Below the pieces are notes generated by a model that was given only the letters and a program-made list of their open reading frames with translations, did not search any database and was not told the origin of the DNA. Shown piece by piece: positions 2,677 through 8,426 of a stretch of 64,000 nt of DNA; the first letter of the stretch is position 1; each line of letters begins with the position of its first letter. Location of the stretch: positions 96,001 through 160,000 of the forward strand of contig JBMNJT010000004.1 of assembly GCA_050951805.1 (NCBI GenBank). Direction: 5' to 3'. This stretch comes from Bacillota bacterium (GTDB lineage: Bacteria > Bacillota > DTU025). The position numbers were made by a program, and so were the translations under genes.

Positions 2677-3460
2677 GTTCGCCCGGCATGGTTGTTGAGC
2701 CGATGGACTGAAAGAAGTCCTGTCACCCAACCAGCGGGAAGACAACCTCAAGGCAAGGGCGTCGCCGAAAGCGGCGGGGTCTGAAGGAAGCTTTAAGGGG
2801 GAACACGGAACGTAGCGAAAGCGAACCGAAGTTGGCCTGTCAGGTGGGTAACCTTGCGAAGTATGGGAAAGCCCGAAAGCTGGATAACCTGGGGGGTTGG
2901 GACGGACGGGTTCATGTTCAGGCAGACAAACTTAACCGGGGAAGCCCTGCATCATCCAGATAGCTGGTAAGCCCAAACAAGCGGAGACGCAAGGATGGGA
3001 ATATGTGGTGTGGGGTGGCAGATGAGTCCGTAGTAGTTATGAACCCTCAGCCCATGAAAGCTGGCAATAGACCGGAGGATAAAACTGAGGGGACAGCGGC
3101 CAGGAGTCGCTGGGCTGCATTGGCCAAAAGCCTATGCAGTTGCGAAGGGACGAAGGCAAACCAAAGCGTGCAACCTAGTTACAGGCAAGCATGGGAGAGA
3201 GATAACAGAGGCTGAAATGCCGATGGGAACGGGGGAGCCGGGGGCGACGAGTCTGCTGGTCCCTGCGCCCGCTCAGCAGAGTATCAAAGCCTGACAGGGT
3301 AGATTGCCTTTGAGCTAGAGGCGCCTCGCAAGACCCTGGGAAGAGACCGAAGCCATGCAGGTGAGAAGCGAAGAAAGCGCTGTAGGATGAAGGGCCTCAT
3401 CAAATACGAGGTCGGCGTCTTGCGTTTCTTCAATGAAACGAAGCAACGAAGGTTTGCCAG
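2677..3460 (+). mobile_element. Degenerate group II (IIC-like) intron copy: RT ORF mostly deleted, domains V-VI missing
   Basis: About 600 bp near-identical to 5073-5670 starting GTTCGCCCGGCATG; 3393-3460 resembles the ORF 3' end (6760-6815) and stops just before domain V. Confidence 0.88.
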
Positions 3461-3488
3461 TGGACACACTTGTTGAGCTGGCGATTCA

Positions 3489-3875
3489 TTACTCTAGCGA
3501 AGCTATGTGATTCTTGATAGCGATGCAGAAAGCCTTGGCGTTCTCCAACACTGAGTGGACGTCTGCATCCTCGATAGTGCGGACCGCACCGTAGTCGGCG
3601 AGATTGCGAAGATCAAAGGCCTCAAGGAAGTGCCGGTGAAGGGAGGCATCTAGGATCCCGGTCTTAACAAAGTGCTGCCCGAAAGCTGCAATTACGGCGG
3701 AGTGCTTGGAAAACGAAAGATCTCGGCTGAGCAGAAGTGCTTCTGCCGAGTAGAACATGGCATAGTATGCCCGGCCAACGGCGAATTCGGGAAACCCATG
3801 CGTGAATAGGTGCTCCGCTGCGGCAAGGCTGCGATCCGCCTTCACGAGCAGATCTGTTACATCCGGTGAGCTCAC
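3489..3875 (-). CDS. HEPN domain protein (UPF0332/COG1895-like)
   Basis: RAYYAMFYSAEALL..SKHSAVIAAFG..LRNLADY; overlaps the MNT gene (GTGA). Confidence 0.88.
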   Translation of the reverse strand: MSSPDVTDLLVKADRSLAAAEHLFTHGFPEFAVGRAYYAMFYSAEALLLSRDLSFSKHSAVIAAFGQHFVKTGILDASLHRHFLEAFDLRNLADYGAVRTIEDADVHSVLENAKAFCIAIKNHIASLE

Positions 3876-4228
3876 AGCCTCACTCCCTCTTTGCGGACAT
3901 TGAGCAGAAAAGGCGTCTTGCCCGAACGGTACTCGTCGATTCCCATGGGGATCAAGGAGATTACCGTGTCGTATCGGAGGGACAGGTCAGCGATGGCCTC
4001 AGAATAGTGTCGTCTCTCACTAAGACCGCTACAGTCCTGAAGTAGAAGCACTAGATCGATGTCTGAACCCTGGACCGATGTGCCTTGGGCATGAGAACCG
4101 AAAAGCACAAGACCCAGGAAACGGTCGCCGTAGATCCCACGCAGCGTGGCTTCAATTTCGCGCACGATACCTTGGAGGCGAGGTGAGAGAGTGAATGACG
4201 GCCGAATAGCCTCAGTATCAGTGTTCAT
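3872..4228 (-). CDS. Minimal nucleotidyltransferase (MNT), partner of HEPN
   Basis: LFGSHAQG..GSDIDL motif; ATG 4228 preceded by GGAG. Confidence 0.88.
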   Translation of the reverse strand: MNTDTEAIRPSFTLSPRLQGIVREIEATLRGIYGDRFLGLVLFGSHAQGTSVQGSDIDLVLLLQDCSGLSERRHYSEAIADLSLRYDTVISLIPMGIDEYRSGKTPFLLNVRKEGVRL

Positions 4229-4810
4229 CTGGACCGCTCCTACATGTGTTGTCGGCACCATTATACCAGACTCATAGACACAAATGGTTCCACCTATCTG
4301 TCGCACCTGGGTACAGCATCGGGTCACGTCTTGTCATGTGGAGTACTGTGGGAGGTTGGAAGCTGGAGGGATTTCTGAATATGGGCCCAAATCCAATGGT
4401 TTCGTCGTATGTTCCCACTCCTGGGGCGAGCGGCGCGGCTGAGCTGGGGTTTGCTGAATTGTTCAGGATGGTCGTCCCACCGGCCCTGATAGGCTTGGCT
4501 GTCGCCCGCTGGCGGCTGCGTACCTACTATTTCACTCTGCTTGTGGGGGGCACTTTGACCTTGGGTCGGCAGGGGATGAGGGATGAATTCTGGGCGGGGG
4601 TGCAGCAGATGATACTCGTGGAGGTATTATGATTGGGGGACGATTTCGTAGATCCGTAGAGGAAATGGATATGTAATGTAGTATGTATTATATTTAAGGC
4701 AGTGGAGCCACATTTATGTCAAATGCTTACGCAATGCTGCTTTGGTTTTGCTGTTGTGTAGGCACCATATTGCTTGCAATTTGGAAGGAGTGCTGTATAC
4801 GCAAAGTCCT

Positions 4811-4980
4811 ACCGCGGACCTCAAAGGATGCCGATTTCTCCGGGAGGTTCGCGCAAGCCATCTAGCTTGGGTAACAGTGTTTGTTACTCGGACACAAGCC
4901 TAAGAGGACTAGCTTTTCAGAGAGGTTCGCGGAACCAGGCTCAAAAGCCCAGGTAAATCGGCGGATTTTTTGGATACTGT
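4811..4980 (+). promoter_or_regulatory. Type I-C-like CRISPR leader
   Basis: CGCGGACCTC (4813) / GAGGTTCGCG (4844) inverted pair plus a second GAGGTTCGCG (4922), resembling I-C leader motifs, directly before repeat 1. Confidence 0.65.
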
Positions 4981-5072
4981 GTCGCACCCCATGCGGGTGC
5001 GTGGATTGAAACCCAAACCTGTGGAATACAAGCGTGGAAGGCCCAAGTCGCACCCCATGCGGGTGCGTGGAT
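4981..5072 (+). CRISPR. Orphan type I-C mini-array: one full repeat, one 34-bp spacer, second repeat interrupted by an intron
   Basis: Repeat GTCGCACCCCATGCGGGTGCGTGGATTGAAAC 4981-5012; spacer 5013-5046; identical first 26 nt of the repeat at 5047-5072; no cas genes in the window. Confidence 0.88.
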
Positions 5073-6895
5073 GTTCGCCCGGCATGTTTGTTGAGCCGAT
5101 GGACTGAAAGAAGTCCTGTCACCCAACCAGCGGGAAGACAACCTCAAGGCAAGGGCGTCGCTGAAAGCGGCGGGGTCTGAAGGAAGCTTTAAGGGGGAAC
5201 ACGGAACGTAGCGAAAGCGAACCGAAGTTGGCCTGTCAGGTGGGTAACCTTGCGAAGTATGGGAAAGCCCGAAAGCTGGATAACCTGGGGGGTTTGACGG
5301 ACGGGTTCGTGTACAGGCAGACAAACTTAACCGGGGAAGCCCTGCATCATCCAGATAGCTGGTAAGCCCAAACAAGCGGAGACGCAAGGATGGGAATATG
5401 TGGTGTGGGGTGGCAGATGAGTCCGTAGTAGTTATGAACCCTCAGCCTATGAAAGCTGGCAACAGGCCGGAGGATAAAACTGAGGGGACAGCGGGAGTCG
5501 CTGGGCTGCATAGGCCAAAAGCCTATGCAGTTGCGAAGAAACCAAAGCGTGCAACCTAGTTACAGGCAAGCATGGGAGAGAGATAACAGAGGCTGAAATG
5601 CCGATGGGAACGGGGGAGCCGGGGGCGACGAGTCTGCTGGTCCTTGTGCCCGCTCAGCAGAGTATCAAAGTTTCGCGGGGTAGATTGCCTTAGAGCTGCA
5701 TACAGGGCCGTCAGGGCCAACAACGGGGCTTCCGGGATAGACGGTGAGACCGTGGACGCCTTCGGCGAGAACCTGGAAGCCAGGCTGGCAGAGATACCGA
5801 AGCCAGACGGAAGCAAAAGGCCGCTTGGCATACCCACCGTTGGCGACAGAGTAGTGCAGCAAGCGCTGCTCAATGTGGTTCAGCCAATCTTCGACCCCGA
5901 ATTTCATCCATCGAGCTATGGGTACCGACCCGGGCGATCCTGTCATCAAGCAGTGGCAAAGGCAGAGAGGTTCATTAATCGCTACGGTCTCAAGCACGTA
6001 GTGGACATGGACTTGTCAAAATGCTTTGACCGACTCGATCATGACCTGATCATTGAGTTTGTGAACCGCAAGGTCAGCGACGGAAGCGTACTTAAGCTGA
6101 TCCGGAAGTTCCTTGAAGCAGGAGTCATGAAAGACGGGGCCTGGGAGGAAACAACCATAGGCAATCCGCAAGGCGGAGTAATATCGCCTCTTTTTGCCAA
6201 CATCTATCTTGACTACTTTGATCAAAAGATGAAGTCAAAGGACATCAGGATAGTGAGGTACGCTGACGATATACTCATCTTTGCGCGGACAAAGCGACAG
6301 GCGGAAAAGTTCTTGGAGATAGCGTGCGAGATCCTTGAGGGCGAGTTAAAGCTCGTTGTGAACAGGGATAAAACGCACATAACCAGCGTCTATAAGGGAG
6401 TGCCCTACCTTGGGTTTGTCATATACCCCAAGAAGCTGGCGAAGTTCAAGGACGCCGTCCGCAAGCTGACTCCCCGCAATCATGGGATGAGTGTTGAGCA
6501 GATGGTGAAGCGACTCAACCGATTCCTTATTGCGAACTGCAAGACGATAGTAGCCAGCCTGATGGGGTGGATAAGGCGGCGTCTGAGGATGAAGCAGATG
6601 GGGGAGTGGAAGAGCTGGAGGGGCCTGCATAAAGCACTTCGAAGGCGAGGCTACTCAGGCGAATTCCTCAAGATATCCATGAGACGATGGAGGAACTCGG
6701 CAAGTCCTCTGGTCAACATGGCGCTTCCTCAGGCTTGGTTCAGTGAGATAGGACTGATTGGCCTCACGAAGTATGAGGTCGTTTCCTATGAAGCGAAGTG
6801 ACTAAGGTTTGCCAGGAGCCGTGCACGGGGCCCGTACGCACGGTTCTGTGAGAGGGATGACGCCAGGCTGATCACCTGGCGCCACCCTACTCGAT
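5073..6895 (+). mobile_element. Group II intron (IIC-like), both ends present
   Basis: 5' GTTCGCCCGGCATG; short domain V GAGCCGTGCACGGGGCCCGTACGCACGGTTC; domain VI ending CCCTACTCGAT; internal RT ORF. Confidence 0.92.
5644..6801 (+). CDS. ltrA: Group II intron reverse transcriptase/maturase, no endonuclease domain; apparent in-frame deletions, true start uncertain
   Basis: IPKPDGSKRPLGIPTVGDRVVQQA, SYGYRPGRS, DLSKCFD, PQGGVISPL, RYADD; the usual segment before IPKPDG appears to be missing. Confidence 0.88.
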   Translation: MCPLSRVSKFRGVDCLRAAYRAVRANNGASGIDGETVDAFGENLEARLAEIPKPDGSKRPLGIPTVGDRVVQQALLNVVQPIFDPEFHPSSYGYRPGRSCHQAVAKAERFINRYGLKHVVDMDLSKCFDRLDHDLIIEFVNRKVSDGSVLKLIRKFLEAGVMKDGAWEETTIGNPQGGVISPLFANIYLDYFDQKMKSKDIRIVRYADDILIFARTKRQAEKFLEIACEILEGELKLVVNRDKTHITSVYKGVPYLGFVIYPKKLAKFKDAVRKLTPRNHGMSVEQMVKRLNRFLIANCKTIVASLMGWIRRRLRMKQMGEWKSWRGLHKALRRRGYSGEFLKISMRRWRNSASPLVNMALPQAWFSEIGLIGLTKYEVVSYEAK

Positions 6896-7081
6896 TAAGT
6901 TACCTTCAGGTTAGTTATGACCTTGCTGCTCCTTTGGTGAAGGCGGTCCGAAAAGGAGTGGCAAAACTTCAGACATTTGGCTTCATCGGGGCTATGCGCT
7001 GACTCAACTTTCGTGTTCTGACAACAGAGGCCCATAGCGAGCCTGTCTTGAGAAGCGCGAGATCCACTCTGTCCTTGCGAA

Positions 7082-7822
7082 TCAGGCCTTTTCTTGTTCG
7101 GCTGAGGCCATCAAGTCGCACGAGTTACGGTCTCGATCGAGGAAATATTGGTGCGCTGCCACACCGAAGAACTCTTCGAGTCGGCCGGCGAGTTCGGCCA
7201 TAGCCCGTTCAACAGCATCACGATTGCGGTCTGTGAACCCATCTATGGGAAAGAAGATGTTCCTTGACTCCTCTGTCACTTTTCCGCGGTCGTTCTGCCG
7301 CCATATCCATCGCCTTGTCCTTATTTCCCGTCCATCGGCATACACCAACTCTCCTGCCGGGACTTCTTCGGGCTCAGCTTCCCCGAGCGGGGTGAAGAGT
7401 TCGCCTTGGCGCGAGAATCGCACCGCTAGATCGCCGGAGATGGAGTCGAGGTCGTGCGCCCCCATTGGTAACGCGAGTTCGAGCGATACGGCGTTTACAA
7501 GGTTCACAACGGAGTTTATGTCGGGAAGATCGCTCCCTTTGACTACCCGGGATGTGAGGGCCTCAACCGAGCAGGGGAACTTGTTCGGGTTATATCCCAA
7601 CGCCCGAAATGCCTCTCGGTAGGGTACGATGTCAGGATGCTCCTTCACATTTGTCCCCGCAAACTTGGCCCTAGTTCGGCGCATAGCTTTACTGAGAAGA
7701 GCACTGATTTTCTGAGCATTGTCTGATTGGAGTTGGGTATTGTCGATGCCGTGCGCCACAACAACGCCAATGCACATAGTGGGCAATACCTCGAATACTT
7801 CAGGATCGATCAGAAATCTCAT
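7082..7822 (-). CDS. B3/B4 domain protein (PheRS-beta-like tRNA editing)
   Basis: YREAF..NPNKFPCSVEAL, INSVVNLVNAVS, GAHDLD, RRWIWRQ. Confidence 0.88.
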   Translation of the reverse strand: MRFLIDPEVFEVLPTMCIGVVVAHGIDNTQLQSDNAQKISALLSKAMRRTRAKFAGTNVKEHPDIVPYREAFRALGYNPNKFPCSVEALTSRVVKGSDLPDINSVVNLVNAVSLELALPMGAHDLDSISGDLAVRFSRQGELFTPLGEAEPEEVPAGELVYADGREIRTRRWIWRQNDRGKVTEESRNIFFPIDGFTDRNRDAVERAMAELAGRLEEFFGVAAHQYFLDRDRNSCDLMASAEQEKA

Positions 7823-8426
7823 GTGCCGATTCCTCCTGTGTCTGCCAGATAGGCGGTCGTAAGCATTTCAGCGGCTATGCGTTGCAATTGCCCATGCGGG
7901 GCGTTCTACTTAATGATACAGCAAATACGAGTCAAACCGCCACATACGTTTGAAGGCTCCTTCGGATTGCCCAGGCCCAATGGAATCTGGGCCTTTTCTT
8001 TGCTCAGGATCGGAGGTTAGATCTATCTGCCCAGGCCGTCATCGCGCTCAATCGAGACCAATGTCAAGAGCCAAAGGTGCATGCGTATCCTTCCCATCTT
8101 GGGTCGTGCAGAGCTGCTGAGATGGCGTCGGCAGATGATGTTGCACGCACCAGAGGGTTCTCTATATCTCCTTCCTCAGCGCCAACAAGGACTACGGCGA
8201 ACAACTGAGTCTTCTTATCTGCCTTCGTCATGTTACTACCCCCCCCGTTCAAGTGGCATGCTCTGACATACAAACACGAAGGACGAAGGATTGCACCTTC
8301 CCGAAGAATTCGAACCGCAGCTACACTTATCAACGGCGCGAGATTAGGACGACGAACGGTCGAAAACGCAAATGCTGCAGGAGAGCCATATGATGGGATG
8401 ACTGATTTCCCATGGGAGTGATTTGT

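What the first reader, a model, noticed from the sequence alone, without database searches (positions are those of the whole stretch)
4981..6901. Group IIC-like intron inserted inside a CRISPR repeat, using the repeat hairpin as target
Seen: repeat 2 (5047) reads GTCGCACCCCATGCGGGTGCGTGGAT and is followed immediately by the intron 5' end GTTCG at 5073, exactly 5 nt after the CGCACCC/GGGTGCG stem. The intron runs in the same orientation as the leader-to-array direction. Known: IIC introns home just 3' of DNA hairpins such as terminators and attC sites. Inference: this retroelement treats type I-C repeats as homing sites. That would give it a multicopy transcribed target, and could either make crRNA maturation depend on splicing or disable the array. 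I do not know of this being a characterised target class.
Basis: partly seen in the sequence, partly recalled or inferred. Interest (0 to 1): 0.85.

Follow-up and report, generated by a model that had tools for sequence, protein, structure and literature searches.

The report
Hairpin-seeking intron lodged in CRISPR repeat
A selfish group IIC intron that normally lands just after terminator hairpins has, once in this lineage, landed after the hairpin of a repeat in a dead two-repeat CRISPR remnant; it is a curiosity of an ordinary mechanism, not a new homing class.

Summary
Window 4981-5012 is an intact 32-nt type I-C-style repeat and 5013-5046 a 34-nt spacer. 5047-5072 is the first 26 nt of a second repeat, and a group II intron runs 5073-6895. 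It starts 5 nt after the 7-bp repeat stem, in leader-to-array orientation. Four independent metagenome contigs carry the same junction.

- The intron belongs to a multicopy class C (IIC) family. Of 78 distinct 5' junctions (12 in this genome, 66 in other genomes of the phylum), 77 lie outside CRISPR repeats, typically after terminator-like hairpins with T-rich tails.
- A repeat-plus-intron-start pattern found only this locus among 241 million metagenome records, 401 phylum genomes and the viral contigs.
- A sister genome has at least 13 identical repeats in its assembled contig, none occupied.
- This genome has no type I-C effector gene (Cas8c absent), so the array is an orphan remnant.
- This copy's reverse transcriptase carries four in-frame deletions, one removing RGWINYFR. 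The 3' flank (TAAGTT) does not complete the repeat.
- No spliced joint was seen.

A decayed paralogous locus (G000:C2:15523) keeps an intron remnant followed by TGAAAC. That suggests the ancestral insertion split a whole repeat.

The parts
4640..4980 (+). CRISPR leader-like region upstream of R1
   Evidence: Window 4782-5072 aligns at 70% to the leader plus first repeats of the I-C array in sister genome G001:C184. Leaders of G001, G004 and G009 share motifs with it. There is one weak sigma-70-like site at 4666-4694, which is not above shuffles.
4981..5012 (+). Intact 32-nt type I-C-style repeat R1
   Evidence: It is identical (0 mismatches) to the 13 repeats of G001:C184.
5013..5046 (+). Single 34-nt spacer
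   Evidence: The same spacer is present in metagenome contigs L157, L160, L167 and L170.
5047..5072 (+). First 26 nt of repeat R2, serving as the 5' exon. Hairpin stem 5049-5055/5061-5067, loop 5056-5060, 5-nt tail TGGAT.
   Evidence: RNAfold of the 45-nt 5' exon shows the 7-bp stem.
5073..6895 (+). Group IIC intron, 1823 nt, a deletion derivative of a 2092-nt family
   Evidence: Boundaries come from 12 5' ends and 10 3' ends of copies in the genome. This copy has unique 1-, 4- and 10-nt deletions in D1-D4.
5157..5326 (+). Ribozyme domain I-IV segment
   Evidence: Rfam RF02001, 50.8 bits against a gathering score of 32.
5644..6801 (+). Degenerate intron-encoded RT/maturase ORF (385 aa from TTG)
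   Evidence: RVT_1 and GIIM. TIGR04416 scores 326 bits against 428 bits for the 424-aa full copy. Four in-frame deletions of 19, 7, 8 (RGWINYFR) and 4 aa, and a replaced N-terminus, relative to copies at C2:831218, C7:21996 and C7:31547.
6814..6895 (+). Domains V and VI, intron 3' end ...CTACTCGAT
   Evidence: Rfam RF00029, 44.2 bits against a gathering score of 40.
6896..6901 (+). First 6 nt of the 3' exon (TAAGTT), not the repeat tail TGAAAC
   Evidence: 2 of 6 positions match. A contig of run X15 reads G at 6897. No further repeat lies downstream. The flank 6896-7900 has no match in 20 relatives.
4246..4632 (+). Fragment of a LPG_synthase_TM-like gene upstream of the leader
   Evidence: Only the last ~50 profile positions match. 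It is 85% identical to the 3' end of the full gene at G000:C2. Related strains carry 999 extra nt between window 4395 and 4396.
2677..3470 (+). Second, truncated copy of the same intron, 5 nt after a 12-bp hairpin (2641-2671) that follows tRNA-Lys (2534-2609)
   Evidence: RF02001 matches 2761-2931. There is no D5/D6 hit.

Best explanation
An ordinary class C (IIC) group II intron made one off-target retrotransposition into a CRISPR repeat, and the result was inherited.

The proposed steps are:
1. An intron RNP formed from a deletion-derivative intron RNA and the 424-aa RT/maturase supplied in trans by an autonomous copy.
2. The RNP recognised the DNA stem-loop that the palindromic I-C repeat forms on the sense strand, in the way it recognises terminator stem-loops.
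3. It reverse-spliced 5 nt 3' of the stem, between GGAT and the repeat tail.
4. The RNA was copied into DNA. The RT has no endonuclease domain, so priming presumably came from the replication fork.

The host array is a two-repeat orphan with no I-C cas genes. The insertion therefore has no immune consequence and is drifting. The RT is crippled, small deletions have accumulated, and the 3' flank no longer completes the repeat.

Shown: the anatomy, the family behaviour, the rarity, the orphan status and the decay. Inferred: hairpin recognition at this particular site, mobilisation in trans and replication-fork priming.
For: - Ribozyme and RT/maturase are present.
- The full-length family protein is most like the GsI-IIC RT (6ar1), E 8.4e-103 over residues 6-411 of 424. 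The next hit is 7uim. No endonuclease extension is present.
- 12 junctions in this genome and 66 in other phylum genomes begin within 0-11 unpaired nt of a hairpin. MFE of the last 45 nt is -11.1 to -32.1 kcal/mol. The repeat hairpin (-16.1) lies within this range.
- Only 1 of 78 junctions is a CRISPR repeat.
- The pattern scans gave no independent case.
- Cas8c is absent from G000 but found in G001, G004 and G013 as positive controls. The only Cas1 and Cas5 lie in a different, I-B-like locus with a different repeat.
- The copy at C3:143717 shares the same four deletions, and five ORF-less copies exist. Non-autonomous derivatives have therefore moved.
- No other copy carries this copy's private deletions, so it has not been a source of new copies.
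- The junction is conserved in strains 96-98% identical.
- Published target classes for class C are terminators and attC stem-loops, recognised by structure plus a short IBS1 (passages seen in PMC4424553, PMC7306698, PMC7161350).
Against: - The 5' exon tail TGGAT is atypical. Positions -6 to -1 carry at least 3 T in 68 of 75 junctions, and GAT ends only 2 (this one and an intron-after-intron tandem).
- EBS1 could not be located, so IBS1 pairing at this site is untested.
- The 3' exon does not complete the repeat. A clean insertion into a whole repeat is therefore inferred only from the C2 paralog.
- A second locus (C2:15523) also has an intron remnant next to a repeat. If that arose independently, the site was used twice.
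The pattern covers only repeats of the GTCGC...GCGTGGAT type with the intron exactly at GGAT|GTNYG.
Confidence: 0.75

Rival explanations
1. Dedicated homing: this intron lineage has adopted type I-C repeats as a preferred, multicopy, transcribed homing site.
For: The insertion point is precise and in transcription orientation. A second locus in the same genome (C2:15523) has a repeat, an intron remnant and then TGAAAC. An RNA-library contig in run X15 continues from the intron 3' end into GAAACGCGTTGCC..., which resembles that C2 flank.
Against: 1 of 78 junctions is a CRISPR repeat. There are 0 independent cases in the metagenome, phylum and viral pattern scans. G001 has 13 identical repeats unoccupied although its genome holds related introns. 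G004 arrays are likewise unoccupied. The occupied array is a dead remnant. No intron sequence variant is shared by the two copies with GAT-ending exons.
Confidence: 0.06
2. Recurrent opportunism: the repeat hairpin was hit twice independently in this lineage (C4 and C2 loci). It would then be a usable, if minor, site whenever it is present.
For: The C4 intron is 93.5-97% identical to the other long copies in the genome but only 77-84% identical to the C2 remnant. The flanks of the two loci are 67-85% identical. This could mean the C4 insertion is younger than the duplication.
Against: The two loci share the same gene fragment, leader, repeat and intron order. One insertion followed by segmental duplication is the more economical account. 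The C4 copy has private deletions consistent with age. The C2 remnant is closest to the same family, at 85.6%. The numbers fit a single old event with neutral decay on both sides.
Confidence: 0.13
3. Secondary junction: the intron first sat after another hairpin, and a deletion or recombination between intron copies later fused it to the repeat or removed the rest of the array.
For: The 3' flank is unrelated to the repeat and absent from 20 relatives. Many same-orientation copies exist that could recombine, including one 2.4 kb upstream.
Against: The 5' junction has the family-typical geometry (5 nt after a stem). The C2 locus shows GGAT ... intron end | TGAAAC, as expected of a true insertion. 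Recombination between copies may explain the 3' side only.
Confidence: 0.04
4. Assembly artefact: repeat and intron were joined by misassembly of multicopy sequence.
For: The intron is multicopy. Logan contigs of the four runs laid break at both R1 and the intron start. One metagenome contig (L160) is chimeric at its far end.
Against: The same junction with the same spacer appears in four separately recorded metagenome contigs and in this 8-contig genome.
Confidence: 0.02

Closest known systems
Bacterial class C (group IIC) introns that insert after intrinsic terminators (for example the GsI-IIC family, and Ta.it.I1 as named in PMC7161350)
   Same: The ribozyme has D5/D6. The ~424-aa RT/maturase lacks an endonuclease domain and is most similar to GsI-IIC RT. 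Insertion is a few nt 3' of a stem-loop in sense orientation. Copy number is high, with ORF-less derivatives.
   Different: At this one site the stem-loop is a CRISPR repeat, with no T-run, and the exon tail is TGGAT. That is a difference of target, not of element.
Group IIC-attC introns of integrons
   Same: A class C intron uses a non-terminator, recombination-related DNA stem-loop as its landmark (passage seen in PMC4424553).
   Different: attC use is recurrent and lineage-specific. Here the repeat is used in 1 of 78 junctions, with no lineage specialised on it. No integron context was examined.
Insertion elements that interrupt CRISPR arrays (general knowledge, recalled, no paper looked up)
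   Same: A mobile element sits inside an array that is decaying.
   Different: Here the element is a self-splicing intron. In the ancestral GGAT|TGAAAC state it could in principle have restored the repeat at the RNA level.

Membership tests
Group II intron, class C / IIC | Catalytic domain V and branch-site domain VI at the 3' end | tested here: met
   RF00029 matches 6814-6895 at 44.2 bits (gathering score 40). The alignment shows the conserved GAGCC...GGUUC helix and the end ...CCUACUCGAU.
Group II intron, class C / IIC | Domain I-IV ribozyme scaffold | tested here: met
   RF02001 matches 5157-5326 at 50.8 bits (gathering score 32). A whole-D1 secondary structure was not modelled. The single-sequence fold is not better than shuffles (z -1.04).
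Group II intron, class C / IIC | Intron-encoded RT plus maturase (X) without an endonuclease domain, nearest to class C proteins | tested here: met
   The family's full copy is 424 aa. TIGR04416 scores 428 bits. The best solved relative is GsI-IIC RT 6ar1, E 8.4e-103, end to end. This copy scores 326 bits and has four in-frame deletions, one removing RGWINYFR, so the protein of this copy is probably inactive.
Group II intron, class C / IIC | Insertion shortly 3' of a DNA/RNA stem-loop rather than in a long sequence-defined homing site | tested here: met
   78 distinct junctions were examined. In the 75 that were folded, a hairpin ends 0-11 nt before the intron, and this copy sits 5 nt after a 7-bp stem.
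Group II intron, class C / IIC | Short EBS1-IBS1 (and EBS3-IBS3) pairing, no EBS2 | tested here: inconclusive
   EBS1 could not be assigned from the Rfam alignment, the fold or a motif-versus-exon-tail comparison. The exon tail GAT is rare, 2 of 75.
Group II intron, class C / IIC | Splicing and retromobility activity | not testable with these tools
   Mobility of the family is implied by 12 copies 93-99% alike. Contigs of three RNA libraries were laid on the region and showed no joint from 5072 to 6896. This carries no weight either way, because contigs drop rare forms.
Type I-C CRISPR array | Repeats of the I-C family separated by 33-37-nt spacers, preceded by a leader | tested here: met
   R1 is identical to the 13 repeats of the G001:C184 array, whose genome encodes Cas8c. 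The spacer is 34 nt and the leader is similar. Only one and a half repeat units exist here.
Type I-C CRISPR array | Cognate I-C cas genes (Cas8c/Csd1, Cas5c, Cas7c) in the genome | tested here: not met
   PF09709 gives no match in G000 (97% complete). G001, G004 and G013 match at E 1e-117 to 1e-190. There is a single Cas1 and a single Cas5, in a locus ordered Cas7-Cas5-Cas3-Cas4-Cas1 next to a different repeat. The array is therefore an orphan remnant.
IIC-attC intron | Target is an integron attC site | not tested
   The target is a CRISPR repeat behind a CRISPR leader. No search for an integron integrase was made.

The most novel reading that the evidence does not exclude
CRISPR repeats that fold into hairpins are a genuine, so far undescribed, minor target class for class C introns. 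Because an inserted intron would be transcribed from the leader promoter and could splice to restore the repeat, such insertions may be tolerated in live arrays and act as one route of array erosion. The two loci in this genome would then be two hits, not one.
Probability: 0.1. Interest if true: 0.6.

Novelty: new member of a known kind. Interest (0 to 1): 0.3.

Why it matters
The locus is a clean natural example showing that class C introns read DNA shape rather than sequence. A CRISPR repeat hairpin without a T-run was enough.

I found no paper describing a group II intron inside a CRISPR repeat in five full-text searches. A review lists only three target specificities: homing sites, terminators and attC (PMC4424553, passage seen). 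The site is therefore worth a line in a census of intron targets, and it is a caution for CRISPR array annotation.

It does not reveal a new mechanism or a link between splicing and CRISPR immunity. The array is dead, the intron copy is decaying, and the event is not repeated elsewhere in what I searched.

Tried and rejected
1. Genome-contig scan with a loose repeat-plus-GTNNG pattern. All 120 hits examined were chance matches, with no second repeat copy and no I-C tail nearby.

2. A degenerate third repeat downstream of the intron. The local alignment score is no better than shuffles, both for the window (1238 of 2000) and for the C2 locus (246 of 2000). Rejected.

3. Locating EBS1 to test pairing with GGAT. 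The Rfam alignment, a single-sequence fold (z -1.04) and a comparison of a conserved D1 motif with exon tails gave no assignment.

4. An EBS retargeting variant shared by the two copies whose exons end in GAT. None was found.

5. Spliced exon joint 5072|6896. None was seen in contigs of one DNA run and three RNA-library runs. These are contigs, so this says nothing about absence of splicing. No listed contig of those four runs bridged 5072/5073 either, because they break at the repeated sequence.

6. The joint '6892 to 5070, goes back 1823' in RNA-library runs X15 and X16 is not evidence of intron circles. The genome has a head-to-tail intron pair at G000:C7:29456/29455 that gives the same joint.

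7. Viral contig scans found 0 hits.

8. Contig L160 seemed to show an ORF-less intron at the CRISPR site, but its end runs into rRNA-like sequence. It is treated as chimeric beyond the 5' junction.

9. Literature hits on Clostridium tetani, Streptococcus suis, Dolosigranulum and Enterobacteriales do not concern introns in repeats (passages seen).

Supplementary tables of PMC7306698 (class C neighbourhoods) could not be seen and might list such a site.
Full report
WHAT IS THERE

The window is G000:C4:96001-160000. At 4981-5012 lies a 32-nt palindromic repeat, and its first 26 nt recur exactly at 5047-5072. The 34 nt between them are spacer-sized. The region upstream resembles the leaders that precede type I-C arrays in relatives. 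The sister genome G001 has 13 copies of the identical repeat behind a similar leader, with 33-37-nt spacers. G001, G004 and G013 encode Cas8c.

Directly after position 5072 comes a group II intron. RF02001 matches 5157-5326 and RF00029 (domains V and VI) matches 6814-6895. An ORF at 5644-6801 has RVT_1 and GIIM domains. The repeat stem is 5049-5055/5061-5067, so the intron starts 5 nt after it, in leader-to-array orientation. The one correction is that the intron ends at 6895.

The next six bases, TAAGTT, match the missing repeat tail at 2 of 6 positions. No further repeat follows.

THE INTRON FAMILY

The genome (8 contigs, 2.75 Mb) holds 12 copies that start with the same bases and 10 that end with the same bases.
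- Three copies are 2092-nt elements with a 424-aa protein.
- Two copies (this one and C3:143717) share four in-frame deletions in the protein. The deletions are 19, 7, 8 and 4 residues, the third removing RGWINYFR. Both also have a replaced N-terminus.
- Five copies are ORF-less elements of about 865 nt.
- Two copies are truncated. One lies in the window at 2677-~3470, 5 nt after a 12-bp hairpin behind tRNA-Lys.

The 424-aa protein is most similar, end to end, to the GsI-IIC reverse transcriptase (6ar1, E 8.4e-103). The next hit is 7uim. It has no endonuclease extension and passes TIGR04416. This is a class C (IIC) family.

WHERE THE FAMILY INSERTS

I collected 5' exons from three searches.
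- The own genome gave 12 junctions.
- 40 relatives were searched, and 8 of the 41 genomes including G000 matched.
- 400 genomes drawn from the phylum were searched, and 54 of 401 matched. Extra flanks were fetched.

After removing duplicates and one false pattern hit, 75 distinct junctions were in hand as loci, 9 own and 66 foreign. Three further own junctions come, giving 78 in all.

The last 45 nt of each of the 75 fold into a hairpin with MFE -11.1 to -32.1 kcal/mol. The hairpin ends 0-11 unpaired nt before the intron. The tail is T-rich: T occupies positions -5 to -1 in 49-58 of 75, and at least 3 of the last 6 nt are T in 68 of 75. This is the published behaviour of class C introns, which insert after terminator stem-loops and recognise structure plus a short IBS1 (passages seen in PMC4424553, PMC7306698 and PMC7161350).

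Exactly one of the 78 junctions is a CRISPR repeat, the one in the finding. Its hairpin energy (-16.1) is ordinary. Its tail (TGGAT) is not. GAT ends only one other exon, an intron that inserted directly behind another intron's domain VI.

IS THE REPEAT A TARGET CLASS?

I scanned for repeats of this family broken at GGAT by a group II 5' end. The pattern was GTCGC-N-C-N-C...G-N-G-N-GCGTGGAT followed by GTNYG.
- In 241 million metagenome records there were 16 hits. Twelve were chance matches in unrelated sequence. Four were this same locus with the same spacer, in strains 96-98% identical to the window.
- In 401 genomes of the phylum only G000 matched.
- In viral contigs nothing matched.

G001 holds related introns (5 matches to the intron's 5' part, two of them reaching its first base) and at least 13 identical repeats, and G004 carries its own arrays. 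Neither shows an occupied repeat in the assembled sequence. Within the limits of the pattern and of fragmented assemblies, the event is a one-off in one lineage.

STATE OF THE HOST ARRAY

G000 has no Cas8c, while the same search rings in G001, G004 and G013. It has one Cas1 and one Cas5. Both lie in a locus ordered Cas7-Cas5-Cas3-Cas4-Cas1 at C2:~136-144 kb, beside a large array with a different repeat. The I-C repeats occur nowhere else except as one degenerate copy at C2:15523. The array is an orphan remnant of one spacer.

From recalled knowledge, not looked up, Cas5c cuts at the 3' base of the hairpin. The intron would then sit in the 5' handle of the next crRNA. With no I-C effector genes, this has no consequence here.

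THE SECOND LOCUS

C2:15523 is a diverged paralog. A full LPG_synthase_TM-like gene is followed by a similar leader, one degenerate repeat and about 170 nt made of pieces of the intron ORF. The window carries only the last ~240 nt of its own copy of this gene. Related strains carry 999 more nt there. Identities between the two loci are:
- gene, 148 of 174 positions (85%);
- leader, 144 of 216 (67%);
- intron ORF pieces, 80 of 95 (84%) and 34 of 44 (77%).

The C2 remnant ends with a diverged copy of the intron's last 16 nt, followed by TGAAAC, the missing repeat tail. The remnant is closest to this same family, at 85.6%. The orthologous genes of G001, G002 and G003 lack the leader and repeat.

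The simplest history has four steps.
1. The intron inserted once into a whole repeat, between GGAT and TGAAAC.
2. The segment was duplicated.
3. The C2 copy decayed by deletions.
4. The C4 copy kept its intron but lost the original 3' flank, possibly by recombination between intron copies. That flank is absent from 20 relatives.

Two independent hits are not excluded, and I give that 0.13.

IS IT ACTIVE?

Probably not at this copy. The protein lacks conserved segments. The RNA carries private 1-, 4- and 10-nt deletions that no other copy shares, so it has not seeded others.

Contigs of one DNA run and three RNA-library runs were laid on 4600-7300. They bridge the 3' junction and cover the leader but show no exon-exon joint. 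Because these are contigs, this is no evidence on splicing.

VERDICT

The claim of a CRISPR homing class is not supported. This is a new copy of a known kind of element at an unusual, apparently unreported site.

Five full-text searches found no description of a group II intron in a CRISPR repeat. PMC6082379 and PMC1871835 were not held.

Noticed in passing
G000:C7:28591-31547 (locus L252): A full 2092-nt intron is followed head-to-tail, with no base between, by an ORF-less copy. The second intron inserted 3 nt after domain VI of the first. RNA-library contigs in runs X15 and X16 show the same 3'-end-to-5'-end joint, which could be this DNA arrangement or intron circles.
   Followed up: partly
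window 5644-6801 and G000:C3:143717-145566: Two intron copies share four deletions in the RT/maturase that are all multiples of three. The frame stays open (404 codons stop to stop) although conserved motifs are gone. This is an odd pattern for random decay.
   Followed up: partly
window 4395/4396: Related strains (L157, L167, L170) carry 999 nt here that the window lacks. The window therefore keeps only the 3' end of a LPG_synthase_TM-like gene in front of the CRISPR leader. A full paralog with the same leader sits at G000:C2:14203-15246.
   Followed up: partly
window 3489-4327, minus strand: Overlapping HEPN (128 aa) and nucleotidyltransferase (151 aa) genes lie between the two intron copies. 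Such a pair usually forms a toxin-antitoxin-like module.
   Followed up: no
G000:C2:136000-152839 (locus L002 and beyond): A type I cas locus ordered Cas7-Cas5-Cas3-Cas4-Cas1 is separated from its ~4.9-kb array (C2:147983-152839) by Mutator-family and IS21-type transposase genes. A 716-aa ORF in front of Cas7 has no Pfam match and may be the large subunit.
   Followed up: no
Read laying bin 4964-5054, run X16: Word depth is very high (about 21,000) over the repeat in one activated-sludge RNA library. Contigs there carry other spacers between the same repeats. Other community members with this exact repeat appear to have live arrays.
   Followed up: no
L160 (metagenome contig), last ~150 nt: The contig runs from the intron's domain V straight into rRNA-like sequence, which looks like an assembly chimera.
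   Followed up: partly
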